NCBI RefSeq assembly: GCF_003019035.1
Contig: NZ_CP027447.1
Direction: 5' to 3' (one strand)
DNA length: 64,000 nucleotides
Origin: Escherichia coli
GTDB taxonomy: Bacteria > Pseudomonadota > Gammaproteobacteria > Enterobacterales > Enterobacteriaceae
In this document: in pieces, positions 8,533 to 44,526 of the stretch
How the letters are laid out: each line of letters starts with the position of its first letter
Position numbering within the stretch: position 1 is the first letter of the stretch
Translations under genes and position numbers: made by a program
The notes under the pieces: generated by a model
Database searches by the model: none
Seen by the model: the letters and a program-made list of their open reading frames with translations, nothing else
What the model was told of the DNA's origin: nothing

Positions 8533-10626
8533 TCAACTCAACGCCCCCATAATCTTCAACTCCAGCTCGTCCGGCACTTCGTTATACGACAGCACATGCA
8601 GCCCCGGCGCAAACAATCTCGCATAGCGCGCCAGCAAAGGGCGCAACTGCGGTGGCACCAGCAGCACAGGGTCTTTCCCCGCCGCTTTCATCTGCTCCTT
8701 CACTTGCGGCATCGTACTCTGGAACTGGTTGAGCATATTCGGGTCAACCGGCACGCTGTCGAGCATCACTTTGCCGGCCTGTTGCGCCTGATTCACCACG
8801 TTGGTCAGCAGATTTTCCAGCTCATTATTCAGCGTATACACCGTCAGCTCCTGCTTGCGAACGAACGGATGGGTAATGCTGCGCCGCAGCGCCAGGCGCA
8901 CATCTGCCGCCAGCAGAATATGATCTTTGGTCACCGCACTACTGGCGACAAGCACGGTGGCGATGGTGACGATATCGCGCAGGGAAACGCCTTCAGTCAG
9001 CAGCGCCCGGTACACTTTCAGCAACTGGCTGTAATTCAGCGCCGCGCTCAAATCCTCCGCCAGGCGCGGTGCCATCGACGACAAACGGTTATGCAGCTGA
9101 GTAATATCGTCATAGTTAAACAAATCAGGAATATAGCTGCGCACAATCTTATTCACATGTGTGGCAATTACGCTGGCGCTGTCGATCACCTGATACCCCA
9201 TATTCAGCGCCTTCGCCTTCTGCGCGGGCTGGATCCAGGTGACCGGCATCCCATATGCCGGGTCATTCCCCAGTACGCCGTCAATCTCGCCGTAGGTTTC
9301 GCTGGAGGGCAGGGCCATCAGTTTATCCGCCGGAATATCCGCTTCATCAGCCTTAATGCCGTTGATGAAAATGGCGTACTGGCTGGGCTTGAGACGGAAG
9401 TTTTCCCGAATACGGATCTCCGGCAGCAGCACGCCGTTACCGTCGGATATCACCTGCCGCACGCCGCGAATCCGCTGGGTGAGCGGGTTCCCCTGCGCTT
9501 TGTCCACCAGCGCCACCAGCTTGTAGCCGAGGCTTAAGCTGATGGGCTCGATCAGCGGAATGGTTTCCCAACTGACCTGTTGCTCGCTGGTTTCGGTGAT
9601 GGTTCGGGTCAGCGTTTCGAGGCTTTTCTCCTCCGCCTCCGCCGCCTGCGGGCGTTTGCTCATCCGCCAGCCGGTAAAGCCAAGCAGGGCGCTGAACAGC
9701 AAAAATGGCAGATGCGGCATCCCCGGCACCACCGCCAGCACAAACATGATCCCGGTGGCGGTGTAGAGCACCGACGGACTTGCCAGCAGCTGGTGGCGCA
9801 CGTCATGGGCGATATCGCCGTTGTCGCTGACGCGGGTGACGATAATTGCCGCCGCGGTGGAGAGCAGCAGGGACGGGATCTGCGCCACCAGCCCGTCGCC
9901 GATGGTCATCAGCACATATTGCTGGAAGGCGGCGTCGGCGCTCAGGTTGTATTTGAAGATCCCGATACAGACGCCGCCGATCAGGTTGATCGCCAGAATC
10001 ATCATCCCGGCGATGGCATCGCCGCGCACAAACTTCGATGCCCCGTCCATCGCGCCGTAGAAATCGGCCTCGCTGGCAACATCTTTACGCCGGGTTTGCG
10101 CCTGCGCCTGGTTGATCAATCCGGCGTTAAGATCGGCGTCAATCGCCATCTGCTTGCCGGGCATCGCGTCCAGGGTAAAGCGGGCAGAAACCTCGGAAAT
10201 ACGCTCGGCCCCTTTGGTGACGACGATAAAGTTGATGATCATCAGGATGATAAACACCACAAAGCCGACGACAAAGTTGCCGCCAATCACCACCTGACCA
10301 AATGACTCAATCACCTTACCCGCCGCGCCTGCGCCGAGATGCCCGTGCAGCAGCACCACGCGCGTAGAAGCAACGTTAAGCGTCAGGCGCATTAGGGTGG
10401 TGATCAGCAAAATGGTCGGGAACAGGCTGAATTCCAGCGGTCGTTTCGCCGACACCGCCACCAGCAGCACCATCACCGCCAGCACAATGTTGAAGGTGAA
10501 CAGAATATCCAGCAACGCAGGCGGCAGCGGCAGAATAACCATCGCCAGAATACACAGGATCACCAGCGGCACGCCGAGATTGCCGCCGCGCAGCAGCGCG
10601 AGGAACGATTTAGTTGTTTTCGCCAT
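8533..10626 (-). CDS. lfhA: Flagellar export apparatus protein FlhA homologue
   Basis: 697-aa ORF; N-terminal TM region and FHIPEP motifs. Confidence 0.9.
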   Translation of the reverse strand: MAKTTKSFLALLRGGNLGVPLVILCILAMVILPLPPALLDILFTFNIVLAVMVLLVAVSAKRPLEFSLFPTILLITTLMRLTLNVASTRVVLLHGHLGAGAAGKVIESFGQVVIGGNFVVGFVVFIILMIINFIVVTKGAERISEVSARFTLDAMPGKQMAIDADLNAGLINQAQAQTRRKDVASEADFYGAMDGASKFVRGDAIAGMMILAINLIGGVCIGIFKYNLSADAAFQQYVLMTIGDGLVAQIPSLLLSTAAAIIVTRVSDNGDIAHDVRHQLLASPSVLYTATGIMFVLAVVPGMPHLPFLLFSALLGFTGWRMSKRPQAAEAEEKSLETLTRTITETSEQQVSWETIPLIEPISLSLGYKLVALVDKAQGNPLTQRIRGVRQVISDGNGVLLPEIRIRENFRLKPSQYAIFINGIKADEADIPADKLMALPSSETYGEIDGVLGNDPAYGMPVTWIQPAQKAKALNMGYQVIDSASVIATHVNKIVRSYIPDLFNYDDITQLHNRLSSMAPRLAEDLSAALNYSQLLKVYRALLTEGVSLRDIVTIATVLVASSAVTKDHILLAADVRLALRRSITHPFVRKQELTVYTLNNELENLLTNVVNQAQQAGKVMLDSVPVDPNMLNQFQSTMPQVKEQMKAAGKDPVLLVPPQLRPLLARYARLFAPGLHVLSYNEVPDELELKIMGALS

Positions 10627-14762: not shown

Positions 14763-14940
14763 GGCTTACTTTCTCTGCTGTAATGGTATGGGTGTTTCTG
14801 TGCACGCAAATCCGGCTGTGACACAAGGTGAGGTATTAAATAGAGGGGGAGTGAAAGGGGCAAATTATTAATAGGGTGAAAAAATAATTAATCGATTAAT
14901 TGCTTAATGGGAGTTATTTTCGCCAATCAGTCTGCGGTCT

Positions 14941-14981
14941 GTCCCCTCGCCCCATCCGGGGAGAGGGTTAGGGTGAGGGGG
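14941..14981. repeat. GC-rich hairpin repeat unit in the lfiM-lafK divergent intergenic region
   Basis: CCCCTCGCCCCATCCGGGGAGAGGGTTAGGGTGAGGGG; same family as 5193 and 8476. Confidence 0.6.
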
Positions 14982-15134
14982 CATCACAGATGTCGAAATT
15001 AACAGTATTAATATCTAACTAATTGTTTACCATCAAATAATATTTTTATTATCGTTTAATTCGAACTTGTTAATCCCGCCGGTGATACGCTTCAGAACAT
15101 CCTGTTTTCTGTCGCTACTGATATCGTTCACCCT

Positions 15135-16121
15135 ATGTCTGAACTTATTGCAACTGCCGCTTCCAGCATTAACGCTTTTACTCTGGCAAAGCGTGTCGCC
15201 GCCTTTAACGTGCCGGTGCTCATTCAGGGCGAAACCGGTGCGGGCAAAGAGTGCGTGGCGAAATATATTCACACAGTCGCCTTTGGTGAAAATGAAAGCG
15301 CACCCTATGTCGGCGTGAACTGCGCGGCGATCCCGGAAAATATGCTGGAATCTACCTTATTTGGCTACGACAAAGGCGCATTTACCGGCGCAATTGCCAG
15401 CGTGCCAGGAAAAATGGAACTGGCGAATAACGGCACCTTATTACTCGATGAAATTGGCGATATGCCGCTGGCGTTACAGGCCAAAATATTACGCGTATTG
15501 CAGGAACAACAGGTTGAGCGATTAGGCAGCAACCGACAAATTAAACTCAATTTTCGCCTGATTGCCTGTACCAATAAAAACCTTGAACAGGAAGTTGCCA
15601 CCGGGCGTTTTCGTGAAGATCTCTATTATCGTCTGGCGGTGATTCCTATTACCATGCCGCCGCTGCGTGAACGTCTGAACGATATTATTCCGCTGGCAGA
15701 GTCATTTATTAAAAAATACTCCACGGTGCTGGTGAAAAATATCACCCTGTCGGAATCTACCCGCCGGGCGCTGCTCAATTACCGCTGGCCCGGCAACGTG
15801 CGCCAGCTCGAAAACGCCATTCAGCGTGGAATGATTTTAAATCGCGACGGCGTGATTTTCCCGGATGCCTTAGGCCTGCCGGAAACAGACGTTGCCGACC
15901 ACAGTGAACTGCAATGGCCTGTTCAGCCTGCCGTCCACATTGCCGAAACCAGCGATTTAGGCCAGCACGGACGAAGTGCGCAATATCAATATATCGCCGA
16001 CCTGATGCGTAAATATCAGGGCAACCGCAGCAAAATTGCCGACCTGTTAGGCATTACCCCGCGCGCACTGCGCTATCGACTGGCCTCCATGCGCAAGCAC
16101 GGTATCGAAGTTTTCTCCTGA
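15135..16121 (+). CDS. lafK: Sigma54-dependent transcriptional activator lacking an N-terminal receiver/regulatory domain (AAA+ core plus C-terminal HTH only)
   Basis: Walker A GETGAGKE 30 aa from the start, GAFTGA motif, C-terminal HTH (...IADLLGITPRALRYRL...); no in-frame upstream extension. Confidence 0.8.
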   Translation: MSELIATAASSINAFTLAKRVAAFNVPVLIQGETGAGKECVAKYIHTVAFGENESAPYVGVNCAAIPENMLESTLFGYDKGAFTGAIASVPGKMELANNGTLLLDEIGDMPLALQAKILRVLQEQQVERLGSNRQIKLNFRLIACTNKNLEQEVATGRFREDLYYRLAVIPITMPPLRERLNDIIPLAESFIKKYSTVLVKNITLSESTRRALLNYRWPGNVRQLENAIQRGMILNRDGVIFPDALGLPETDVADHSELQWPVQPAVHIAETSDLGQHGRSAQYQYIADLMRKYQGNRSKIADLLGITPRALRYRLASMRKHGIEVFS

Positions 16122-21599: not shown

Positions 21600-22004
21600 A
21601 TGAAAACGGTCATCACCTTCGGCACCTTCGATGTGTTTCATGTCGGTCATCTGCGCCTTTTACAACGCGCCCGCACGCTGGGCGAACGGCTGCTGGTCGG
21701 CGTATCGTCCGACGCCTTAAATATCGCCAAAAAGGGCAGAGCACCGGTTTACCCTCAGGATGACCGCATGGCGATTATCGCCGGGCTGGCGTGCGTGGAT
21801 GGCGTATTTCTCGAAGAATCGCTGGAGCAGAAAGCGGAGTATTTGCGCGGGTACAGTGCGGATATTTTGGTGATGGGCGATGACTGGGCAGGGAAGTTTG
21901 ATAGCTTTGCGTATATTTGTGAGGTGGTGTATTTCCCCCGTACGCCGTCGGTGTCGACGACGGGGATTATTGAGGTGATTAGGGGGAAATCAGCAACCTA
22001 CTGA
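21600..22004 (+). CDS. Glycerol-3-phosphate cytidylyltransferase (TagD-like, makes CDP-glycerol)
   Basis: N-terminal ...ITFGTFDVFHVGH... (HxGH nucleotidyltransferase motif) and ...MGDDWAGKFD...CEVVYFPRT.SVSTTGI... closely parallel Bacillus TagD as recalled. Confidence 0.8.
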   Translation: MKTVITFGTFDVFHVGHLRLLQRARTLGERLLVGVSSDALNIAKKGRAPVYPQDDRMAIIAGLACVDGVFLEESLEQKAEYLRGYSADILVMGDDWAGKFDSFAYICEVVYFPRTPSVSTTGIIEVIRGKSATY

Positions 22005-22052
22005 TTTAATTCCCGAAGTGAGAGAAGATGATGCCGTTTGGCTATGTTAAAT

Positions 22053-22155
22053 ATGTTTAAAAAATCGCGTTTTTTCGACATATCCCCAAAACATGTCGAT
22101 GGCATAAACGTATTCCAACGACATGTTTAAAAATCGCATTTTATCGACATATCCC
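22053..22155. repeat. Two imperfect 33-bp direct repeats 70 bp apart, containing a TCGACAT/ATGTCGA inverted motif
   Basis: ATGTTTAAAAAATCGCGTTTTTTCGACATATCCCC (22053-22087) and ATGTTTAAAAATCGCATTTTATCGACATATCCC (22123-22155); second copy overlaps the stop of the minus-strand transferase gene. Confidence 0.7.
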
Positions 22156-24612
22156 TGACGATTCCTTGCCCGCCAACGTCTCCACAATCACCATCGCCGC
22201 CCGTTCTCCCGCCTTGCCATCCATAAACGCATCGCAATAGTGATGACGAATCTTCGTAAGCCGCGCCTGCACCGCACCCCAGTCAAACGCCTCTGACAAC
22301 AAATAACGCAGTTCCGCAACATCATGAGCCACCGGCAATATTTCGCGGATTCGCTGGTCGGCGCTCTCCGGCGTGGAGTAGCTTTTCTCGCCGTCGAGCA
22401 ATTCACTCATGCCCGGAAAGTCGAGCAGGATCACCCGCTTATCGACATGGATAGCATCGAAAATAAAGCCGCTGTTATCGGTCAGCACGTAATCGGCCTT
22501 TGCCAGCAGCGCCAGCGTGTGGCGGGCGGAGTCGGTGCGCTGTTTTAAATGTCTGCGCGCGAGTGCCAGCGATGCAGTTTCTTCCGGGCGCGAGCAGGTG
22601 CCGTGGTGCAGTTTGCAAATCAGGTTCACATCATCGCTTAAGCGCCCCAATTTTTCTGCCCAGTGGGGCAGGGAGCTTAATGCGCCAAACGTTGGGGCGT
22701 AGAGCACCGTAGGTTTACGGGAATCGGGTTGAATATTTTCTGGCAGAATGCGGTCAAACGTGCCGTTATGCCAGGCGTCGAAGCGCGGGTTGCCGACTGC
22801 TTTTGCATTGCCGAAATGCGCCAGCGCCCGCTGGCTGTAGTGGCTGTAACACAAAATGCGCTGATAAAAACGGTTCCAGTCGGCGTGGTTCCACGTCTCT
22901 TTGGCTAAGCCGTACATGGCGCGAACGTTCACCGCTGCCAGGCCATTGAGCGCGGGCGTGTGGTAGGGGCTGACCAGGCATTTCACCCGCTGACCGTGTG
23001 CCTGCATTTCAGATAAGCGCATTCCTTTAAGCTGCGGATCGTCGATGCTTTTTAGCGTCTCCAGCATTTCATCCAGAAACGGTTTAAACACGCGGTCATT
23101 GATCACCAGTGTGCAGCTCTGCCCCTGCGCCTGTAGAGCGGTGATGATTGGGCGATACAGCGAGTAGTGGAATGAGGTTTCCATAAAAAAGCCGATGGTG
23201 TTGGCGATGGGGAATGCGGATGGTTTTGTAACTACGGGTAACTTATTGAAATAGTGACTAATGTTGTCGGTCACTTTTTTCTCGATGTCACTAAAGCCCG
23301 GTCGCTGATAACTAAGGCTCGGGTAACAGGCCAGCCATTTGTCGGCGCGCAGCAGCGGCTGCCAGCACTCTTCCAGCGAGTGCTCACCGTTGCCCATCTG
23401 CTGTGCCAGTTGCGGGTAGTAGCGGCTGTTCACCAGATAAGCACACACTTTGCGGCAGTCCCGCGCGTGCACCAGCCCCGGCAAACTTTTTAGCATCGTT
23501 CCCTGCGAAATTTCGCCGCCAAGGATCATCACCTGCCAGGGAATTTTCGCCAGGCTCGCCAGCAGCGTGTTCAGCACCTGAATATGTTTCTCCTGCTTGA
23601 GAATAACCGCGTCATCTTCCAGCAGCAGATAGTTTTGCCAGCCGTGCTGTTGCGCCAGGCGCAGCGCCTGCAAGTGCGACAGGCGGCGGCCCCGTTGACC
23701 GTTTTCATCTTCACAGGCGGCAAGGCGGGTGATTTTCTCGGGCGGAATATGCAGCAGTGCCAGTTCTTCACGGATCTGTTGTAAGCGATCCGGGCGTTTA
23801 TCCAGATTGATCAATACGACCTGATCGATCGCCTGATGGTTGATCGCCTGGTGATGAGTGGCGTTATGCAGACTCAGATAAGCATTGCGGAGCAGCGGAT
23901 CGCGGACGATATCCGTAAGCGCCGCGTTTACTGGCGTGCTGGCCCCGAGAATAAAGTCTTTATCAAAGGTGTTGTGGCTGTGCGAGATACACAAAATCGT
24001 GCGCTCGCCGGGCAGTTGTAGCGGGTTAGCGCTGAAATTGTCGGTGAAACTTTTCTCTTCGCCTAAATTGCAATCGTCATCGTAGCGGTGCTTTTTCAGG
24101 TAGTTACGGTGATAGCAAAAGGTGCCGTTGAGGATGTTATGCGGGCCGAAGCTGCGGCTTTGAAAGATGCGATTGATGTGGCTGTACCAGATGGGGATCT
24201 GGTCGGAACCGGAGATGAGCGCCCGGTTTTTTTGCATCATAGCGATGGTGTAAGAGATTTTATCTGCCGGGTAGTAGTCGTCATCGTCCATGCAGAGGAT
24301 GTATTCGCCGCGCGCCAGTTCGTTGAGCATATTGCGTTTTTTGCCCAGCGGCAGTTTTTCCGGGTGATGGATGTAGCGGATGTTGAAGGCTTCCTGTGTG
24401 CCATTGGTCAGGCGGTCGATGATGTGTTGATGGCTTTGCGGGGAATCGTCGAGGATGATGAGTTCGCGGCGGTCTGCCGGGTAGTCCTGATAGCGGTACA
24501 TATAAAGCAGGTACGGCAGGAATGCGCTGCGGTTCCAGGTTGGCGTGACGACGCTGACGAACGGTTTTTCGCGCTGGGTGGCGAGTGTTTTGATAATGGT
24601 TGGTGTTGGCAT
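22141..24612 (-). CDS. Three-domain transferase: N-terminal GT2-like, central GT25-like, C-terminal TagF/TagB-like CDP-glycerol glycerophosphotransferase domain
   Basis: GT2-like VSVVTPTWNRSAF...ILDDS...CMDDDDYY; GT25-like VVLINLDKRPDRL; TagF-like LYAPTFG and VLTDNSGFIFDAI motifs; start set at MPTPTIIK because the longer ORF runs into a repeat. Confidence 0.75.
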   Translation of the reverse strand: MPTPTIIKTLATQREKPFVSVVTPTWNRSAFLPYLLYMYRYQDYPADRRELIILDDSPQSHQHIIDRLTNGTQEAFNIRYIHHPEKLPLGKKRNMLNELARGEYILCMDDDDYYPADKISYTIAMMQKNRALISGSDQIPIWYSHINRIFQSRSFGPHNILNGTFCYHRNYLKKHRYDDDCNLGEEKSFTDNFSANPLQLPGERTILCISHSHNTFDKDFILGASTPVNAALTDIVRDPLLRNAYLSLHNATHHQAINHQAIDQVVLINLDKRPDRLQQIREELALLHIPPEKITRLAACEDENGQRGRRLSHLQALRLAQQHGWQNYLLLEDDAVILKQEKHIQVLNTLLASLAKIPWQVMILGGEISQGTMLKSLPGLVHARDCRKVCAYLVNSRYYPQLAQQMGNGEHSLEECWQPLLRADKWLACYPSLSYQRPGFSDIEKKVTDNISHYFNKLPVVTKPSAFPIANTIGFFMETSFHYSLYRPIITALQAQGQSCTLVINDRVFKPFLDEMLETLKSIDDPQLKGMRLSEMQAHGQRVKCLVSPYHTPALNGLAAVNVRAMYGLAKETWNHADWNRFYQRILCYSHYSQRALAHFGNAKAVGNPRFDAWHNGTFDRILPENIQPDSRKPTVLYAPTFGALSSLPHWAEKLGRLSDDVNLICKLHHGTCSRPEETASLALARRHLKQRTDSARHTLALLAKADYVLTDNSGFIFDAIHVDKRVILLDFPGMSELLDGEKSYSTPESADQRIREILPVAHDVAELRYLLSEAFDWGAVQARLTKIRHHYCDAFMDGKAGERAAMVIVETLAGKESSGICR

Positions 24613-24660
24613 GGTGTTTGGGTGAGTTAATGGGTGAATGTGATGAATGTGCGTGCTGAT

Positions 24661-24770
24661 GCCCTCACCCCGACCCTCTCCCACAGGGAGAGGGAGAAAA
24701 CCAGCGCCGATTTTAACACCGTGCTCGATCGGTTCCCTCGCCCCTTTGAGGAGAGGGTTAGGGGGAGGGG
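24661..24770. repeat. Two GC-rich hairpin repeat units (24661-24696 and 24735-24770) between the transferase gene and the upstream 309-aa gene
   Basis: CCCTCTCCC-ACA-GGGAGAGGG and CCCTCGCCCC-TTTG-AGGAGAGGGTTAGGGGGAGGGG; same family as 5193. Confidence 0.6.
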
Positions 24771-24790: not shown

Positions 24791-25720
24791 TCACGTCAGC
24801 AGCGAAAATGCTGACAGCAGCGGCTCTGCCGCACATAACGACTGGAGCTGCTGGCGAATCGCCGCAGCATTTTCACTCTCTCGCCAGCGTTCAAACACCG
24901 CAAAAAGGGCGAAAATATCCTCCTTCCGCAGCGGTGAACCATCCAGCGTCCATAAACTGATTAACGTGCGGATGAGATAAAAATCACACACCAGCGGGCA
25001 ATAATCTGCTCCGTCTGCCTGCCCAATCACGTCGTGATAAACGCGGTAAATCAGCCAGTTGCGCATCATCCACGGCGCGGCGGCAAAATGCTGTTGCCAG
25101 GTGGTTTGCCACTGCACCTTAAGCTGCTGTTGCAACAAAGCTTCGCTGTTGGCGTCATGCAACGTCAGCAAAGTCACCTGCAACGGTAGCGAGGCTTTGC
25201 GCGGGCTTTCCGGCAAAATCGACCAGTCAAACGCAAAACTCCCGAGCAGCGTCACCAGTTGGCGCGCCAGTTGTGGCACGGGTGGGAGTTGGGCGAACTG
25301 TGCCTGTAGCGTGCCTTTTTGTGCATGATCCCCCAGCGCCTGTGGCAGCGTTGTCAAGCGGGCAAGAATATCTCCGTCTCTGCCCGGCATTTTACTGGCG
25401 CGGGAGAGCAAAATCCCGACGGCATACAGGGAAAGCTCCGGGGTTAAATCGGGGAGCGTAAGGGTACTCAAAATTATCTGGTTGACTATCGCATCGCGCG
25501 CGGATAGCTCGGCGGCATTGTCTTCCACAGGGCGGTAGGTGAGCTGTAAATCAAAGGCCCTGGCATCGTTGAGCACCGCTTTGCAACTTTCAATATCGGT
25601 CAATGCCAGGCTCTGGCGAATCTCATTCTTCCAGACCTTGCGGACGTACAAAGGCGAATCGGGATATTGCGTCATAAAATTGCGCACGTATTCCGGTTCG
25701 TAACATTCAATAAAACTCAT
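24791..25720 (-). CDS. Hypothetical protein (309 aa) in the Flag-2 variable/modification region
   Basis: Long ORF co-oriented with lfgN and the transferase gene; no motif I can assign; start chosen at the first ATG (ORF-track start is TTG). Confidence 0.6.
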   Translation of the reverse strand: MSFIECYEPEYVRNFMTQYPDSPLYVRKVWKNEIRQSLALTDIESCKAVLNDARAFDLQLTYRPVEDNAAELSARDAIVNQIILSTLTLPDLTPELSLYAVGILLSRASKMPGRDGDILARLTTLPQALGDHAQKGTLQAQFAQLPPVPQLARQLVTLLGSFAFDWSILPESPRKASLPLQVTLLTLHDANSEALLQQQLKVQWQTTWQQHFAAAPWMMRNWLIYRVYHDVIGQADGADYCPLVCDFYLIRTLISLWTLDGSPLRKEDIFALFAVFERWRESENAAAIRQQLQSLCAAEPLLSAFSLLT

Positions 25721-25847
25721 AGGTGGCTTCCAGTCTTTATTACTTTGCGGAATGTGCAATAAGCGTGCCGGGAATTTTTGTAATCAAAAACAAGGGATTG
25801 AGAATCAGGCGGAAAATCCGTTTCCGCGATGGGGGAAGGAATTGTCG

Positions 25848-26276
25848 TTATTCCTGGTACAGAAAATCTGCTTCGCCGCCTAAAAAAGACTGAATAAATT
25901 CATACTGGCGAATCAACAGCTCGCCGTTTTTGTCGTTGTAGGCTTTGCAGCGTTCCGCTTTTTGCTCAAGGCGTTGCCACAACTGTTGTGCTGCTGCTTT
26001 TTGCACAGCCGGAAGCCAGGCAAAAACCTGCGCCAGACCGTCACGATTTACACTGACATTGAGCATTTTCAGCAGGCTGTGTCGCTGATGGCTATGCCCA
26101 TGCAACTGCTCATAGTGATGTGTTATCTCGTCGTTTACCGCCAGCAGATCTTCGCTGGCGCGGCGAATCATGCAGATCCGCTGACGCTGGAGAAGTTCGC
26201 GCAGGGAATCGTACAGTGCGTCGTCGTCACGAATGCCCTGCAACAACGCCTTCACCTGTTGTAACCGGATACTCAC
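25848..26276 (-). CDS. lfgN: Flagellar export chaperone FlgN homologue
   Basis: 142-aa helical ORF downstream of the flgM homologue. Confidence 0.75.
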   Translation of the reverse strand: MSIRLQQVKALLQGIRDDDALYDSLRELLQRQRICMIRRASEDLLAVNDEITHHYEQLHGHSHQRHSLLKMLNVSVNRDGLAQVFAWLPAVQKAAAQQLWQRLEQKAERCKAYNDKNGELLIRQYEFIQSFLGGEADFLYQE

Positions 26277-26288
26277 TTCATCGGCCTC

Positions 26289-26567
26289 TTAGTTCTGGAA
26301 AAAACTCAGCATGTCGCTGGCTAACTGTTCGGTGTCCACTTGCAGGCTGCCGGACGCCAGCATCGCTTGCATTTGCGCCACTTTGTCGCTGTCGATATCG
26401 CTCTCTTGCTGGTCGTTCAGCGTTTGCTGGGCAGACTGCAATCCCGCCTGGGTAATGTCGTCGGCGCTCAGCGTCGTGGCGGTGGTCGCCGTGCTTTTGC
26501 GCGGCTGACTGGAGCCTGCCATTGTGGCTGTCGGGCGATTGCCTGGCATCGTCGGGGTGATTTTCAT
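26289..26567 (-). CDS. lfgM: Anti-sigma28 factor FlgM homologue
   Basis: 92-aa ORF with FlgM-like C-terminal helices (...KVAQMQAMLASGSLQVDTEQLASDML...). Confidence 0.8.
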   Translation of the reverse strand: MKITPTMPGNRPTATMAGSSQPRKSTATTATTLSADDITQAGLQSAQQTLNDQQESDIDSDKVAQMQAMLASGSLQVDTEQLASDMLSFFQN

Positions 26568-26647
26568 CGCAACCTCGTCTCGGTATTTGGGTGGGTTACT
26601 CCGGTAAAGCGGTTAACAGGCGGCAAAACTTTAATCGCCTGCGCAAA

Positions 26648-27406
26648 TTACTCCGCGCTTACCGTCGTCACCACGCCGCTTTCTGCCACCATTGCGCTGA
26701 TGACCCGCTGGCTGCTGGCGTTACGTACTTTCACCATCTCGCCTTTGCGGCCATTTTTCAGCGCCACGCCGGGCATCGAGGCGGTGATCCCCGCGCTCTG
26801 GTAAACAATCATCACCGGCTCATCGCGTTCGACCAGCACTGGCGAAACCAGCTCTTCTTTGGTGATTGGTCTGCCCGGTTGCAACGCGTGCTTACTGCTG
26901 AAACCAATTGCGTCATCGAGCTCCATCAGCACATCCCGCCGCTGGGCGCTGACGTTGTAGGGCTTCAGCTCCACATCATTTGCCGTGAGCGGCGTATCGC
27001 GGGCAATCAGTGACTTTGCCATCACCACCGGCACCAGAACATCCGGGCGCACCGCGACGTTCATCTGCCAGCTTTGCGGGCAACTGACGGTGAAGTTCAT
27101 CCGGTTAAGGGCGATTTCCGCAGGCGACGTCAGCGTGACGCCGGGTGACGTTGTACAGGGCGCGGCGGTCGCAATCTGCGACGGAATATAGACCTTAAAG
27201 GTGTAGCGATAGTCATGCCATTGCCGCTGCTGCGCCAGCGATTCAATTTTTTGGCTCGCGGCATTCAGTACCTGGGCGTTGATTTGTTCCCGCGCGCTAT
27301 GTTGCACGGGATGGACGGCGGCGTAGCCCGGTAAGGCCAGCGCCAGGAGGAAATAAAACTTCCGCCTGCAAAATTGAAAACTCATAAACCCTTTCTCATC
27401 AGTCAC
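26648..27406 (-). CDS. lfgA: Flagellar P-ring assembly chaperone FlgA homologue
   Basis: 252-aa ORF with signal peptide, divergent from the flgB operon. Confidence 0.8.
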   Translation of the reverse strand: MTDEKGFMSFQFCRRKFYFLLALALPGYAAVHPVQHSAREQINAQVLNAASQKIESLAQQRQWHDYRYTFKVYIPSQIATAAPCTTSPGVTLTSPAEIALNRMNFTVSCPQSWQMNVAVRPDVLVPVVMAKSLIARDTPLTANDVELKPYNVSAQRRDVLMELDDAIGFSSKHALQPGRPITKEELVSPVLVERDEPVMIVYQSAGITASMPGVALKNGRKGEMVKVRNASSQRVISAMVAESGVVTTVSAE

Positions 27407-27414
27407 TTAAAAAT

Positions 27415-27430
27415 TGGCACAGCGATTGCA
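27415..27430 (+). promoter_or_regulatory. Sigma54 (-24/-12) promoter upstream of lfgB
   Basis: TGGCAC-AGCGA-TTGCA, exact match to TGGCAC-N5-TTGCW. Confidence 0.7.
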
Positions 27431-27466
27431 TAGCGTATGCGGATTGAAGCAGGAGTGACGCAGGAA

Positions 27467-27802
27467 ATGGGGATCAGTTTTCAGCAGGCATTGGGAGTAC
27501 ATCCGCAGGCAGTGAAGTTACGTCTTGAGAGGACCGAGCTACTGACTGCGAATCTGGCGAATGTCGATACGCCAAATTTCAAGGCTAAAGATATTGATTT
27601 TGCCAGGGAGATGCAACGGGCAAATAACGCGGCGGTGGATGTCCAGTACCGCGTGCCGATGCAGCCGTCAGAAGATGGCAACACCGTGGAACTGAACAGC
27701 GAACAGGCACGGTTTTCACAAAATAGTATGGATTATCAAAGCAGTCTGACCTTTCTGAATCTGCAAATCAGCGGCATCAGAGAGGCCATTGAAGGGAAAT
27801 AA
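27467..27802 (+). CDS. lfgB: Flagellar basal-body rod protein FlgB homologue
   Basis: ...LLTANLANVDTPNFKAKDIDF... rod-protein N-terminal motif; start set downstream of the predicted sigma54 transcription start (ORF track 27437). Confidence 0.8.
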   Translation: MGISFQQALGVHPQAVKLRLERTELLTANLANVDTPNFKAKDIDFAREMQRANNAAVDVQYRVPMQPSEDGNTVELNSEQARFSQNSMDYQSSLTFLNLQISGIREAIEGK

Positions 27803-27804
27803 GC

Positions 27805-28236
27805 ATGTCATTTACTGATATCTATCAGATTTCCGGCTCGGCGATGACGGCGCAAACGCTACGTCTGAATACCGTCGCCAGTAACCTGGCGAATGCTAAT
27901 GCACCTGCCGGCAGCGAGGCGCAGGCGTATAAAGCGCGCAGCCCGGTGTTTGCGGCGGTGTATCACCACAGCTTGCTGGTGGGTACACATCGTCATGCCA
28001 TTGATGGTGCCAGCGTGCAGGTGCAGGACGTGCTGCAAACCGGCGGGGCGGTGAAACGCTATGAACCGCATTCGCCGCTGGCGGATGCTAACGGGGATGT
28101 CTGGTATCCCGACGTCAACGTGGTGGAACAGATGGCGGACATGATGTCGGCCTCGCGCGATTTTGAAACCAATGTCGATGTGCTCAACAACGTGAAAAGT
28201 ATGCAGCAAAGCCTGCTGAAACTGGGAGAAGCCTGA
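27805..28236 (+). CDS. lfgC: Flagellar basal-body rod protein FlgC homologue (uninterrupted)
   Basis: 143-aa ORF with rod-protein N-terminal (...ASNLANANA...) and C-terminal motifs. Confidence 0.85.
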   Translation: MSFTDIYQISGSAMTAQTLRLNTVASNLANANAPAGSEAQAYKARSPVFAAVYHHSLLVGTHRHAIDGASVQVQDVLQTGGAVKRYEPHSPLADANGDVWYPDVNVVEQMADMMSASRDFETNVDVLNNVKSMQQSLLKLGEA

Positions 28237-28949
28237 TGAATACCCTGGCGCTGAATGCGCAATCGCCGCAGCCGACCGCCACGGCGGAAAGCAACAACGT
28301 GGCGGCCAGCGACACGCAAAGTAGCAGCGATAGCTCGCCCGTCGATACCTTCCTGACGCTGTTTGTCGCTGAGATCCAAAACCAGGACCCGACCGACCCG
28401 ACCGACGCCACCGAATATATCGACCAGCTTTCGTCAATGGCGCAGGTGGCGATGATGGAAGAGATGAGCGTGCAGGCGAATACCAACGCGGTGTTGATGA
28501 GCAACATTCAGGTGATGGCGCTCGGCAACCTGGTGGGCGACGACATTATGGTGCAGACCACCGCCTTGCAGGTGAGTGACCAGACCATTAACGGTCGCGC
28601 CACGCTTGACGACGCCTGTACCACCGCCGATCTCCACTTTACCGATGCCGCAGGCGATGACTATACGGTGTCGCTGATCCCGGAAGGGAGTTCGTCCGTC
28701 GGGCCAGGCCAGGTGGATTTCTCGGTGAATCCCGCGGATTACGGTATCCCGCCGGGTGATTACGACGTCTCGGTGGTCACCAACACCGGGGAAGAAGAGG
28801 TGCCGATTGAAGTCTCCGGCGAAGTGGAAGATGTGCGCATCCCGCTCGACGGCAGCTCTCCGGTGCTCAATGTTGCAGGTGTAGGCGAAGTGCCGTTCAC
28901 CATGATTAGCCAGTTTGGCGTACCCGATGCCGACAGTGATGTGGCGTAA
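28236..28949 (+). CDS. lfgD: Flagellar hook cap/assembly protein FlgD homologue
   Basis: 237-aa ORF between the flgC and flgE homologues. Confidence 0.8.
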   Translation: MNTLALNAQSPQPTATAESNNVAASDTQSSSDSSPVDTFLTLFVAEIQNQDPTDPTDATEYIDQLSSMAQVAMMEEMSVQANTNAVLMSNIQVMALGNLVGDDIMVQTTALQVSDQTINGRATLDDACTTADLHFTDAAGDDYTVSLIPEGSSSVGPGQVDFSVNPADYGIPPGDYDVSVVTNTGEEEVPIEVSGEVEDVRIPLDGSSPVLNVAGVGEVPFTMISQFGVPDADSDVA

Positions 28950-28971
28950 GAACAATTAACAGGAAGAAACA

Positions 28972-30174
28972 ATGAGTTATGAAATTGCCGCAACGGGGCT
29001 GAATGCCGTTAACGAACAGCTGGACGGGATCAGTAACAACATCGCCAACGCCGGAACGGTAGGCTATAAGTCGATGACCACCCAGTTTTCAGCCATGTAT
29101 GCCGGAAGTCAGGCGATGGGCGTCAGCGTGGCAGGCACCGCGCAAAGTATTTCGCGCGGCGGTTCGCTGGTATCCACCGGTAACGCGCTGGATCTGGCGA
29201 TTAACGACGACGGTTTTTTTGTTACCTGCGACAGCGCGGGCAACATTTCTTATACCCGCGCCGGATCGTTTGAAACCGACAAAAACGGCTATATCGTCAA
29301 CGCCTCAGGCGCTTATTTGCAGGGCTATCCGGTCGATGACACGGGCACCCTGCAAACCGGTACAGTCACCGATATCCAGATCAAAACTGGCAATATTCCG
29401 GCGCAGGCCAGCAGCAGCCTGACCTTTACCGCCAACTTCGATGCCAGCGACGACGCTATCGACCGCACTACCGTACCGTTCGACGCGACCAACAGCAGCT
29501 CGTACACCGACAGCTACACCACCACGGTGTACGACTCATTAGGCAACGAACATTCGGTATGCCAGTACTTCACCAAAACCAGCGACAACACCTGGGAAGT
29601 GCAGTACACCTTCGACGGTCAGCAGCAGACCGGCGTTCCAGCGACGACGTTAACCTTCGACCCGAACACCGGGAAGCTGACTTCGCCAACTACGCCGCAG
29701 ACCATTGAATTTCAGACCGACGCCGCCGCACCCATCGACTTAACCGTCGATTACTCCACCTGTACGCAATACGGTTCTGAATTTTCTGTCACCACCAACG
29801 CCGCCGACGGCTACGCCTCCGCGACTCAGAACGGTGTGCAGGTCGATGACGATGGCAAAGTTTACGCCACCTACAGCAACGGCGAGCGCATGTTGCAGGG
29901 CCAGGTGGTGCTGGCGACTTTCCCTAACGACGACGGCCTGCAAGCCGTAAGCGGTACCGCGTGGGTACAAACCGGGGAATCCGGCACGCCACTGATTGGT
30001 GTTCCCGGTTCCGGAACCTGCGGCACGCTCACGTCGGGAGCGCTTGAGAGCTCTAACGTCGATATTACCAGCGAACTGGTTAACCTGATGACCGCCCAGC
30101 GTAACTATCAGGCCAACACCAAAGTGATCGCCACCAGCACGCAGCTCGATGACGCGCTGTTCCAGGCAATGTAA
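28972..30174 (+). CDS. lfgE: Flagellar hook protein FlgE homologue
   Basis: 400-aa ORF with conserved axial-protein N and C termini (...LVNLMTAQRNYQANTKVI...). Confidence 0.9.
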   Translation: MSYEIAATGLNAVNEQLDGISNNIANAGTVGYKSMTTQFSAMYAGSQAMGVSVAGTAQSISRGGSLVSTGNALDLAINDDGFFVTCDSAGNISYTRAGSFETDKNGYIVNASGAYLQGYPVDDTGTLQTGTVTDIQIKTGNIPAQASSSLTFTANFDASDDAIDRTTVPFDATNSSSYTDSYTTTVYDSLGNEHSVCQYFTKTSDNTWEVQYTFDGQQQTGVPATTLTFDPNTGKLTSPTTPQTIEFQTDAAAPIDLTVDYSTCTQYGSEFSVTTNAADGYASATQNGVQVDDDGKVYATYSNGERMLQGQVVLATFPNDDGLQAVSGTAWVQTGESGTPLIGVPGSGTCGTLTSGALESSNVDITSELVNLMTAQRNYQANTKVIATSTQLDDALFQAM

Positions 30175-40014: not shown

Positions 40015-40045
<31 letters not shown>

Positions 40046-40162
40046 ACGAACAACACCGCCTGCGGGCGGTGTTGTGCTTTCTGCGGCAGGCGTATTTCCG
40101 CCAGACCGGAAATGGCTTTTCCGCCTGTTTTTCAATCTATTGATTCTTCACATAAAAAATAT

Positions 40163-40177
40163 TGGCACGCCTTTTGC
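40163..40177 (+). promoter_or_regulatory. Sigma54 (-24/-12) promoter upstream of lafB
   Basis: TGGCAC-GCCTT-TTGC, about 30 bp upstream of the lafB start. Confidence 0.7.
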
Positions 40178-40209
40178 CAATAACCTGACATCGTTATCCG
40201 GAGTCATCA

Positions 40210-43806: not shown

Positions 43807-44526
43807 ATGCTACAGGACGTATTATTCGAGTCAGAAGAATTTGCTGCCGCGCCGGTATTAACCCCGCAGCAGGAGAGCCACTACTTGCAGGCCTATTTAC
43901 CACTGGTGCGTAAAGTGGTGCGGCAACTTGCCCCGCAGTGTAATTGCATTATTGATCGTCAGGATATGGAACAAACGGCGTTAATGGGGCTGCTTAATGC
44001 CATTCGCCGCTACGGGCTGCCGGACGAAGGTTTTGCGGGCTATGCCGTGCACCGTATTCGCGGCGCGATCCTGGATGAGCTGCGCGCTCTCGACTGGCGA
44101 CCGCGCCAGCTGCGACAGAAATATCATCAGATGAAAGACCTGATTCGCGAAACGCGTAAAAAACTGGGGCACGAACCGGAGTGGCAGGAGCTGGCTGAGG
44201 AAGGGATCTCGCATGAAGATTATCTCGAATATCAGCAACTGGAAGGGGCGGAAACGCTCGCCAGCCTGGACGAACTGCTGAACGGCGAAGGGCCAGGCAT
44301 TCCGCTTGCTGGCAGAGACCTGGAAGATCAGTTTGTCACGCAGAAAATGCTGCAACACGCGCTTTCACAATTAAGCGAAAAAGAGCAACTGATCCTCTCC
44401 ATGTATTACCAGCATGAGATGAATCTCAAAGAGATTGCGCTGGTATTAGGGCTAACCGAGGCCCGAATTTGTCAACTGAATAAACAGATCGCGCAGAAAA
44501 TTCGTGATTTTGTCTATCCGAATTAA
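43807..44526 (+). CDS. lafS: Flagellar sigma factor (sigma28/FliA family)
   Basis: 239-aa ORF with sigma70 region 2 and region 4 HTH (...LKEIALVLGLTEARICQLNKQ...). Confidence 0.85.
   Translation: MLQDVLFESEEFAAAPVLTPQQESHYLQAYLPLVRKVVRQLAPQCNCIIDRQDMEQTALMGLLNAIRRYGLPDEGFAGYAVHRIRGAILDELRALDWRPRQLRQKYHQMKDLIRETRKKLGHEPEWQELAEEGISHEDYLEYQQLEGAETLASLDELLNGEGPGIPLAGRDLEDQFVTQKMLQHALSQLSEKEQLILSMYYQHEMNLKEIALVLGLTEARICQLNKQIAQKIRDFVYPN

What the first reader, a model, noticed from the sequence alone, without database searches (positions are those of the whole stretch)
27415..27430. Consensus sigma54 promoter in front of the lfgB rod/hook operon
TGGCAC-AGCGA-TTGCA is an exact -24/-12 element. It places the transcription start after the ATG at 27437, so the FlgB homologue probably starts at 27467. 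This supports a LafK-then-sigma54 hierarchy like that of Vibrio lateral flagella.
Basis: seen in the sequence. Interest (0 to 1): 0.4.

Follow-up and report, generated by a model that had tools for sequence, protein, structure and literature searches.

The report
Sigma-54 promoter before lfgB operon
This is a real and deeply conserved sigma-54 promoter that drives the rod and hook genes of the second ("lateral", Flag-2) flagellar system of E. coli; it has already been noted in the literature, but it comes with a conserved upstream palindrome, probably the landing site of the activator LafK, for which I found no published description.

Summary
The motif TGGCAC-AGCGA-TTGCA is at 27415-27430 (+), the only exact match in the window (0.05 expected). 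The window is the E. coli Flag-2 locus. The site lies in the 81-nt lfgA-lfgB spacer and predicts a transcription start near 27441.

A -24/-12 element of at least 14 bits lies upstream of lfgB in 79 of 80 orthologous loci (the other scores 12.9) and in a Vibrio-type locus.

LfgB starts at 27467, not 27437. Homologues from about 15 genera, the NCBIfam profile and RefSeq all begin there. Only 27467 has a Shine-Dalgarno sequence.

An intact LafK with no sensory domain is encoded at 15135-16121.

It is not new: PMC4578781 reports consensus sigma-54 sites upstream of lfgB and lafB.

What I add:
- A third sigma-54 promoter (25770-25755, minus strand) for lafV and a glycosyltransferase.
- A conserved palindrome, GCGGAAA-N5-TTTCCGC, centred at -74 to -97 upstream of all three promoters. 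It is probably the LafK enhancer.
- An IHF-like site between the palindrome and the promoter.

No transcription start, rpoN or lafK dependence, or LafK-DNA binding has been tested in E. coli.

The parts
27415..27430 (+). Sigma-54 -24/-12 promoter element TGGCAC-AGCGA-TTGCA (GG at 27416-27417, GC at 27428-27429)
   Evidence: Conserved in 80 of 80 orthologous loci (79 at 14 bits or more) and in a Vibrio-type locus.
27440..27443 (+). Predicted transcription start, about 12 nt after the -12 C (inferred, not mapped)
   Evidence: Arithmetic, using the established geometry of sigma-54 promoters.
27441..27466 (+). Predicted 26-nt leader with Shine-Dalgarno AGGAG at 27451-27455
   Evidence: The gap between the promoter 16-mer and the start codon is 29-87 nt in orthologues, which implies leaders of about 19-77 nt.
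27467..27802 (+). lfgB coding sequence (111 aa), first gene of lfgBCDEFGHIJ(KL)
27437..27439 (+). Upstream in-frame ATG, rejected as the start codon (lies at -4 to -2 of the predicted start, no Shine-Dalgarno sequence, extension not conserved)
27347..27365 (.). Palindrome GAGGAAA-TAAAA-CTTCCGC, candidate LafK enhancer centred at -85; lies inside codons 7-13 of the divergent lfgA
27397..27409 (+). Weak IHF-like site CATCAGTCACTTA (2 mismatches to WATCAANNNNTTR), centred at -38
   Evidence: Stronger in other genera: 49 of 80 loci have 1 mismatch or none.
26648..27385 (-). lfgA, divergent neighbour; its own promoter was not identified
15135..16121 (+). lafK, sigma-54 activator without a sensory domain (AAA+ with GAFTGA, plus HTH_8)
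40163..40178 (+). Second sigma-54 promoter, TGGCACGCCTTTTGCC, in front of lafB (lafBCDEF-lafS-lafTU; includes the sigma-28 gene)
   Evidence: PMC4578781.
40083..40124 (.). Two palindromes (40083-40101 and 40106-40124) centred at -97 and -74 of the lafB promoter
40133..40145 (-). Perfect IHF consensus AATCAATAGATTG, centred at -50 of the lafB promoter
25755..25770 (-). Third sigma-54 promoter, CGGCACGCTTATTGCA, in front of lafV (FliB-like, 24791-25720) and the glycosyltransferase gene
25809..25827 (.). Perfect palindrome GCGGAAA-N5-TTTCCGC centred at -74 of the lafV promoter
25791..25803 (-). IHF-like site TCTCAATCCCTTG (1 mismatch), centred at -53 of the lafV promoter

Best explanation
27415-27430 is the sigma-54 (RpoN) promoter of the Flag-2 rod and hook operon lfgBCDEFGHIJ(KL). 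RNA polymerase carrying sigma-54 binds the GG(-24)/GC(-12) element as a closed complex. It needs ATP-driven remodelling by the locus-encoded activator LafK, a PspF-like protein with no sensory domain, so its activity is probably set by its abundance or by a partner protein. LafK most likely binds as a dimer or hexamer to the palindrome GGAAA-N5-CTTCC centred at -85, inside the first codons of the divergent lfgA. It reaches the polymerase by DNA looping, possibly helped by IHF binding at about -40. Transcription starts near 27441, giving a 26-nt leader with an AGGAG ribosome-binding site, and translation of LfgB starts at ATG 27467. The same promoter module drives lafB, an operon that includes the sigma-28 gene lafS, and lafV plus a glycosyltransferase gene. 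This gives a cascade of LafK, then sigma-54 middle genes, then sigma-28 late genes.

Shown: the motifs, their positions, their conservation, the LafK domains and the LfgB start position.

Inferred: sigma-54 and LafK dependence in E. coli, the exact transcription start, that LafK is the protein that binds the palindrome, and the role of IHF.
For: - The motif is unique and the best-scoring site in the window.
- A site of at least 14 bits lies 29-87 nt upstream of lfgB in 79 of 80 species loci, against about 0.3 expected. T-26, G-25, G-24, A-22, T-14, G-13 and C-12 are invariant in 79 distinct sequences.
- E. coli alleles differ only at non-critical positions.
- No sigma-70-like promoter is found nearby and no Rfam element.
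- LafK is intact: Sigma54_activat, AAA lid, HTH_8, GAFTGA and Walker motifs.
- The palindrome (2 mismatches or fewer) occurs 4 times in the window against 0.61 expected, and all four copies lie upstream of the three best sigma-54 sites.
- Within 400 nt either side of the lfgB start in 80 loci, all 65 core palindromes lie between -150 and -81. 63 of 80 loci have one between -100 and -75, against about 0.2 expected.
- Half-sites are conserved while the spacer varies. None of 25 background sigma-54 hits has a palindrome.
- The palindrome centres (-74, -85, -97) differ by 11 and 23 bp, roughly one and two helical turns.
- IHF consensus sites are concentrated between -60 and -30.
- A Vibrio-type locus carrying the published flgB2 19-mer has the same layout: palindrome at -75, IHF site at -50.
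- V. parahaemolyticus flgB2 binds RpoN and is rpoN-dependent (PMC9817140).
- Start codon: and the RefSeq annotation.
Against: - There are no experimental data for E. coli: no mapped start, no rpoN or lafK mutant data, and expression conditions for Flag-2 are poorly known.
- In Aeromonas hydrophila many lateral flagellar clusters are reported to be LafK-independent (as reviewed in PMC4481668).
- The IHF-like site at lfgB in this window is weak (2 mismatches) and varies among E. coli alleles.
- The palindrome at lfgB overlaps lfgA codons, so part of its conservation there could be a coding constraint. At lafB and lafV it is non-coding.
- A recurrent palindrome in the lfgA-lfgM spacer of another clade has no sigma-54 partner, so the element may have a second role.
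- 17 of 80 loci lack the strict core at lfgB between -100 and -75; two of these (Serpens, Pseudomonas flexibilis) carry it at -141 instead.
Confidence: 0.88

Rival explanations
1. The match is a chance occurrence of the sigma-54 consensus with no promoter function. On this view lfgB is transcribed from an unrecognised sigma-70 or sigma-28 promoter, and the protein may start at 27437 (121 aa).
For: With 2 mismatches allowed, the pattern is no more frequent in the window than in shuffles (33 observed against 45.7 expected), so loose matches carry no information. ATG 27437 is in frame and is conserved within Escherichia alleles.
Against: The exact match is unique. It is conserved at the same position in 80 of 80 loci, with invariant GG and GC. 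No sigma-70-like promoter is found. The N-terminal extension is not conserved, is interrupted by stop codons in other genera, and has no Shine-Dalgarno sequence.
Confidence: 0.02
2. The conserved block serves the divergent lfgA gene (its promoter or an operator) rather than lfgB, and its resemblance to a sigma-54 site is incidental.
For: lfgA begins only 30 nt upstream of the motif. No lfgA promoter was identified, so lfgA control elements must overlap this region.
Against: The conserved bases are exactly the sigma-54 contact positions, in the lfgB orientation and at a fixed spacing. The same module precedes lafB and lafV, which have no divergent partner. RpoN binds the Vibrio orthologue.
Confidence: 0.03
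3. The sigma-54 promoter is real, but the palindrome GCGGAAA-N5-TTTCCGC is not the LafK enhancer. It could be the site of another regulator (for example LafZ, or a host factor), or an RNA hairpin or terminator. LafK would then act from elsewhere, or from solution.
For: LafK binding to DNA has not been tested. At lafV and lafB the palindrome sits just downstream of the preceding gene (lfgN, lafA), where a terminator hairpin could lie. A recurrent copy in the lfgA-lfgM spacer of another clade has no sigma-54 partner. Some activators, such as H. pylori FlgR, work without an enhancer (cited in PMC3162934).
Against: LafK keeps an HTH_8 DNA-binding domain. The palindrome's distance from the -24/-12 element is fixed and phased by helical turns. 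No run of T follows it. At lfgB it lies inside a coding region, on the non-transcribed side of the promoter. Variable spacers with conserved half-sites fit a dimeric protein site. lafA already has a separate strong terminator at about 40052-40076.
Confidence: 0.2

Closest known systems
Sigma-54 sites reported upstream of lfgB and lafB in E. coli Flag-2 (Liu et al. 2015, PMC4578781, which cites Ren et al. 2005, J Bacteriol 187:1430, for the Flag-2 locus)
   Same: The same locus, the same two promoters and the same consensus (TGGCAC-N5-TTGC). The paper reads them, together with an intact LafK sigma-54 activation domain, as signs of a functional LafK/sigma-54 system.
   Different: That paper gives one sentence, with no coordinates, conservation analysis, start-codon argument, enhancer, IHF site or third promoter. 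The Ren et al. paper was not available to me, so I cannot say how much it already contains.
Vibrio parahaemolyticus lateral flagellar class 2 promoters (flgB2/VPA0264 and lafB/VPA1550) under LafK and RpoN
   Same: Orthologous operons with -24/-12 motifs. RpoN binds the flgB2 promoter in EMSA, and flgB2C2D2 and lafBCD are down-regulated in an rpoN mutant (PMC9817140). A Vibrio-type contig carrying the exact flgB2 19-mer shows the same arrangement of palindrome (-75), IHF site (-50) and sigma-54 element.
   Different: The Vibrio -12 element is TTGT rather than TTGC. In Vibrio, lafK and fliMN also depend on rpoN, whereas the E. coli lafK-lfiM intergenic region has no sigma-54 site of 9 bits or more. 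In E. coli the genes form one cluster rather than two regions.
pspA promoter with PspF (E. coli)
   Same: The activator has no sensory domain (AAA+ plus HTH; LafK is grouped with PspF and HrpRS as type Ic in PMC3162934). From my own knowledge of the psp system, it also has a compact upstream activating site about 80-125 bp upstream and an IHF site between that site and the promoter.
   Different: The target genes and recognition sequence are different. PspF is held in check by PspA; no equivalent negative regulator of LafK is known.
Flag-1 flgA-flgB divergent class 2 promoters (FlhDC with sigma-70) of E. coli and Salmonella
   Same: The same gene order, with divergent flgA(MN) and flgB operons sharing a short control region.
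   Different: Flag-1 uses sigma-70 and the FlhD4C2 activator. Flag-2 uses sigma-54 and an AAA+ activator, and no FlhDC-type or sigma-70-type promoter is detected here.

Membership tests
Sigma-54 (RpoN)-dependent promoter | GG and GC dinucleotides exactly 10 bp apart within TGGCAC-N5-TTGCW | tested here: met
   exact match at 27415-27430, 16.9 of 18.1 bits.
Sigma-54 (RpoN)-dependent promoter | Located upstream of, and oriented towards, a gene, at a leader-length distance | tested here: met
   36 nt between the element and ATG 27467; 29-87 nt in 80 orthologues.
Sigma-54 (RpoN)-dependent promoter | Conservation of the contact bases across orthologous promoters | tested here: met
   T-26, G-25, G-24, A-22, T-14, G-13 and C-12 invariant in 79 distinct sequences. 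The sequences were anchored on the best-scoring site, which inflates this somewhat.
Sigma-54 (RpoN)-dependent promoter | A cognate AAA+ enhancer-binding protein with a GAFTGA loop is available | tested here: met
   LafK at 15135-16121: Sigma54_activat E 1.9e-64, GAFTGA at residues 81-86.
Sigma-54 (RpoN)-dependent promoter | An upstream enhancer (activator-binding site), often with an IHF site in between | tested here: met
   Palindrome at -85. The IHF-like site is weak in this window but common in orthologues. Binding itself was not tested.
Sigma-54 (RpoN)-dependent promoter | Transcription abolished in an rpoN mutant; start mapped about 12 nt after the GC | not testable with these tools
   Needs 5' RACE and mutants. 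Supported only through the Vibrio orthologue (PMC9817140).
LafK-dependent class 2 lateral flagellar promoter (Vibrio model) | Orthologous operon and LafK orthologue in the same flagellar gene system | tested here: met
   L086 carries lfgB to lfgL with the same promoter layout.
LafK-dependent class 2 lateral flagellar promoter (Vibrio model) | Expression requires LafK | not testable with these tools
   No expression data. Inferred from the co-occurrence of LafK, its HTH domain and the palindrome.
FlgB rod protein (correct N-terminus) | The N-terminus aligns with the family from residue 1 | tested here: met
   The 111-aa form aligns residues 1-111 to positions 1-116 of 116 in NF009328. 16 homologues start at the equivalent residue.
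Type Ic enhancer-binding protein (PspF, HrpRS, LafK type) | AAA+ sigma-54 interaction domain plus a C-terminal HTH, with no N-terminal sensory or receiver domain | tested here: met
   The AAA+ domain starts at residue 6 and HTH_8 covers 284-317 of 328 aa. The classification is from PMC3162934.

The most novel reading that the evidence does not exclude
The palindrome GCGGAAA-N5-TTTCCGC (core GGAAR-N5-YTTCC) is the LafK enhancer, for which I found no published description. Paired with an IHF site and a -24/-12 element, it defines a compact, helically phased promoter module and a minimal LafK regulon of three units: lfgB, lafB (which includes the sigma-28 gene), and the flagellin-modification genes lafV and a glycosyltransferase. 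The module is conserved from Vibrio-type loci through the Enterobacterales to Pseudomonas flexibilis and Serpens. At lfgB it is written into the signal-peptide codons of the divergent lfgA gene.
Probability: 0.6. Interest if true: 0.4.

Novelty: already known. Interest (0 to 1): 0.25.

Why it matters
The promoter itself adds nothing new. It confirms a published remark and the current RefSeq start codon.

Its practical use is that Flag-2 is carried by about a quarter of complete E. coli genomes (1279 of 5426), yet the conditions under which it is expressed are poorly understood. A defined promoter module (palindrome, IHF site, -24/-12 element) gives specific mutations and reporter fusions for testing when and how LafK switches the system on.

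It also predicts that flagellin-modification genes (lafV and the glycosyltransferase) are co-regulated with the hook and basal-body genes. The candidate LafK site would allow LafK regulons to be predicted in any genome with lateral flagella.

Tried and rejected
- **Founding papers:** I tried to read Ren et al. 2005 (by DOI and as PMC545627) and Kim and McCarter 2004 (PMC419961). None is held, so prior description of the enhancer cannot be excluded.
- **Literature on a LafK enhancer:** two searches found nothing relevant. One search was swamped by eukaryotic enhancer papers.
- **Vibrio flgB2 19-mer in metagenomes:** four of the five matches (L082-L085) were chance matches in unrelated DNA, three of them GC-rich and encoding a signal peptide. 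Only L086 was a lateral flagellar locus.
- **Rfam scan of 25600-27900:** only noise.
- **Sigma-70 and terminator scan of 27250-27600:** nothing found, so the lfgA promoter remains unidentified.
- **Loose sigma-54 matches (2 mismatches or fewer):** no enrichment over shuffles, so they were not used.
- **Palindromes without a sigma-54 partner:** those inside lfgE (codons for GGSITS) and lafW are coding coincidences. The one between lfgG and lfgH is an ordinary longer hairpin. The one in the lfgA-lfgM spacer is unexplained.
- **Sigma-28 promoter upstream of lafA:** an inspection by eye gave no convincing match to the E. coli FliA consensus, and I did not pursue it.

Full report
**Observation**

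The sequence TGGCAC-AGCGA-TTGCA lies at 27415-27430 on the + strand. An ATG sits at 27437 and a second, in-frame ATG at 27467.

The pattern TGGCAC-N5-TTGCA is unique on both strands of the 64-kb window, against 0.05 expected from shuffles. With two mismatches allowed the pattern is not enriched (33 found, 45.7 expected), so only strong matches carry information.

I scanned the window with a simple weight matrix (my own approximation of published sigma-54 frequencies). This site is the best in the window, at 16.9 of a possible 18.1 bits. The three top sites all lie in intergenic DNA and all point into flagellar genes.

**Context**

The window is the E. coli Flag-2 (secondary, lateral-type) flagellar locus. 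The region 26000-29000 is found at 90-99% identity in 1279 of 5426 complete E. coli genomes. The RefSeq annotation of strain SMS-3-5 gives the gene order lfhAB-lfiRQPNM / lafK-lfiEFGHIJ / variable region / lfgNMA / lfgBCDEFGHIJKL / lafW, lafZ, lafA, lafBCDEF-lafS-lafTU, flanked by dinB.

The motif lies in the 81-nt spacer between the divergent genes lfgA (start at 27385, minus strand) and lfgB.

**Conservation**

I fetched 80 orthologous loci, one per species. They cover Escherichia, Citrobacter, Yersinia, Enterobacter, Pantoea, Erwinia, Serratia, Rosenbergiella and others, and also Pseudomonas flexibilis, Serpens, a Lysobacteraceae MAG and Methylomonas.
- In all 80, the best sigma-54 hit in the 300 nt upstream of lfgB scores 12.9-18.1 bits and ends 29-87 nt before the start codon. 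In 79 of them it reaches 14 bits.
- Across the 1.65 Mb of all sources there are 144 hits of at least 14 bits. Eighty precede lfgB (79 loci plus the window). Only about 44 are unassigned, so roughly 0.3 would be expected by chance at lfgB.
- Anchored on the element, T-26, G-25, G-24, A-22, T-14, G-13 and C-12 are invariant in 79 distinct sequences.
- Within E. coli, alleles at 91.5-99.3% identity read ATGGCACGGCGATTGCT, ATGGCATGGCGATTGCT or ATGGCACGGTAATTGCC. All keep the contact bases.
- No sigma-70-like promoter or terminator is detected in 27250-27600. No Rfam family matches.

**Start codon**

With C27429 at -12, the start of transcription is predicted near 27441, so ATG 27437 (at -4 to -2) would not be transcribed. 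Five independent lines agree:
- LfgB homologues from about 15 genera all begin M/V-[GSA]-I-S-F at the position of 27467, and the 10-residue extension is not conserved.
- Several genera have an in-frame stop codon just upstream.
- The 111-aa form aligns from position 1 of NCBIfam NF009328.
- RefSeq annotates 336 nt.
- AGGAG lies 11 nt before 27467, and nothing resembling a Shine-Dalgarno sequence precedes 27437.

**Activator**

LafK (15135-16121, 328 aa) has a sigma-54 interaction domain starting at residue 6, an AAA+ lid domain and a C-terminal HTH_8 domain. It also has GAFTGA at residues 81-86, Walker A (GETGAGKE) and Walker B (LLLDE).

It has no receiver or sensory domain. The literature already groups it with PspF and HrpRS as type Ic (PMC3162934).

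**Additional elements found here**

- *Other sigma-54 promoters.* The second-best site (40163-40178, TGGCACGCCTTTTGCC) precedes lafB. That operon includes the sigma-28 gene lafS. The third-best (25770-25755 on the minus strand, CGGCACGCTTATTGCA) precedes a 309-aa gene and a family 2 glycosyltransferase. The 309-aa gene is a distant FliB-like lysine-N-methylase (NF038110, E 4.9e-10, below the curated cut-off). It matches the 'LafV' proteins of variable region 1 described in PMC6993521.
- *Palindrome in this window.* All three promoters are preceded by a palindrome, GCGGAAA-N5-TTTCCGC. With two mismatches or fewer it occurs four times in the window against 0.61 expected (0 of 100 shuffles reached four). 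The copies are at 25809-25827 (perfect), 27347-27365, 40083-40101 and 40106-40124. Relative to the predicted starts, their centres lie at -74, -85, -97 and -74. The differences of 11 and 23 bp correspond to about one and two helical turns.
- *Palindrome across species.* Within 400 nt either side of the lfgB start in 80 loci, all 65 occurrences of the core GGAAR-N5-YTTCC lie between -150 and -81. Sixty-three loci have one between -100 and -75, against about 0.2 expected. At lafV, 17 of 18 loci have the palindrome at about -74, most of them perfect, with freely varying spacers. Seven Tatumella and Rosenbergiella loci have it at -77 of a sigma-54 site immediately after lafA, which is the lafB promoter. 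None of 25 background sigma-54 hits has one.
- *IHF-like site.* A match to WATCAANNNNTTR (one mismatch or none) is concentrated between -60 and -30. It is present in 49 of 80 lfgB promoters, 18 of 18 lafV promoters and 2 of 2 lafB promoters. In this window it is perfect at lafB but weak (two mismatches) at lfgB.

**Link to experiment**

In V. parahaemolyticus, the flgB2 and lafB promoters carry RpoN motifs. RpoN binds the flgB2 promoter in EMSA, and flgB2C2D2 and lafBCD are down-regulated in an rpoN mutant (PMC9817140).

A metagenomic contig (L086) carries the exact published flgB2 19-mer followed by lfgB to lfgL. It shows the same architecture: palindrome GGAAGTTTGGCTTCC centred at -75, a perfect IHF site at -50, a 29-nt leader, and a protein beginning MAITFENALGVH.

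**Mechanism**

The most likely mechanism is as follows. LafK is made from a promoter that is apparently sigma-54-independent; no site of 9 bits or more lies in 14763-15134. LafK binds the palindrome and contacts sigma-54 holoenzyme bound at -24/-12, through a loop that IHF probably assists. It then opens the promoter. Transcription starts at about 27441, and LfgB is translated from 27467.

The same module switches on lafB (and with it sigma-28) and the flagellin-modification genes. The motifs, positions, conservation and protein domains are shown. Dependence on RpoN and LafK in E. coli, the exact start, LafK binding to the palindrome and the role of IHF are inferred.

**Novelty**

The promoter is already published. 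[quoted passage not shown] RefSeq already uses the 27467 start.

I found no description of the palindrome, the IHF site or the lafV promoter. However, the founding papers (Ren et al. 2005 and Kim and McCarter 2004, both tried, and Stewart and McCarter 2003, which I did not look up) were not read.

**Unexplained**

- No promoter for lfgA was found.
- A recurrent palindrome in the lfgA-lfgM spacer of the Enterobacter, Kluyvera and Lelliottia clade has no sigma-54 partner.

**Verdict**

The candidate LafK enhancer is the only part that may be new.

Noticed in passing
window 25755-25827 (- strand): A third sigma-54 promoter (CGGCACGCTTATTGCA) lies in front of a FliB-like 'LafV' gene (24791-25720) and a family 2 glycosyltransferase gene (about 22141-24585). 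It has a perfect GCGGAAA-N5-TTTCCGC palindrome at -74 and an IHF-like site. This implies that flagellin-modification genes belong to the LafK/sigma-54 class. It is conserved in 18 loci.
   Followed up: yes
window 40083-40178: The lafB sigma-54 promoter has two palindromes (centred at -97 and -74) and a perfect IHF consensus (40133-40145). It drives the operon that contains the sigma-28 gene lafS (43807-44526).
   Followed up: yes
L041, L042, L055 and others at about 9060-9090 (lfgA-lfgM spacer): About 25 loci of the Enterobacter, Kluyvera, Lelliottia and Cedecea clade carry the same palindrome core, with variable spacers, between lfgA and lfgM. There is no sigma-54 site within 160 nt. Its role is unknown. 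The window has no such copy.
   Followed up: partly
window 27386-27466 (- strand): No recognisable promoter for the divergent lfgA gene: no sigma-70-like or sigma-54-like site, and no sigma-28-like site by eye. The lfgB enhancer palindrome lies inside lfgA codons 7-13 (signal-peptide region RRKFYFL).
   Followed up: partly
window 14763-15134: The divergent lafK / lfiM control region (372 nt) has no sigma-54 site of 9 bits or more. The lafK-lfiEFGHIJ and lfiMNPQR-lfhBA operons are therefore probably not sigma-54-dependent here, unlike what is reported for Vibrio (lafK and fliMN are down-regulated in an rpoN mutant, PMC9817140).
   Followed up: partly
window 14937-14985 and 24650-24770: G-rich repeat elements of the type CCCTCGCCCC...GGAGAGGGTTAGGGTGAGGGGG (resembling E. 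coli boxC-type intergenic repeats, from memory) occur in the lafK-lfiM spacer and between lafV and the glycosyltransferase gene. They inflate the mechanical ORF at 22141-24684 beyond the RefSeq start.
   Followed up: no
window 40015-40076: A REP-like element (gccggatgcggcgtaaacgccttatccggcc) and a GC-rich hairpin followed by a short T-rich stretch (terminator-like by eye; aacaacaccgcctgcgggcggtgttgtgctttc) lie directly downstream of lafA, upstream of the lafB enhancer.
   Followed up: no
window 22004-22141, compared with L001 14478-16169: Variable region 1 differs from strain SMS-3-5. The window lacks the two hypothetical genes that lie between the cytidylyltransferase gene and the glycosyltransferase gene in SMS-3-5.
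   Followed up: no
L002 (Pseudocitrobacter vendiensis) and L005 (P. faecalis): These genomes, labelled Pseudocitrobacter, carry a Flag-2 region with an LfgB 99-100% identical to the window's and about 91-93% DNA identity over 13-17 kb. That is as close as the cryptic Escherichia species, which suggests horizontal transfer or mislabelling.
   Followed up: partly
window 27205-27220 (- strand): A fairly strong sigma-54-like match (TGGCATGACTATCGCT, 13.9 bits) lies inside lfgA, about 640 nt upstream of lfgM. It has no palindrome and is probably chance.
   Followed up: no
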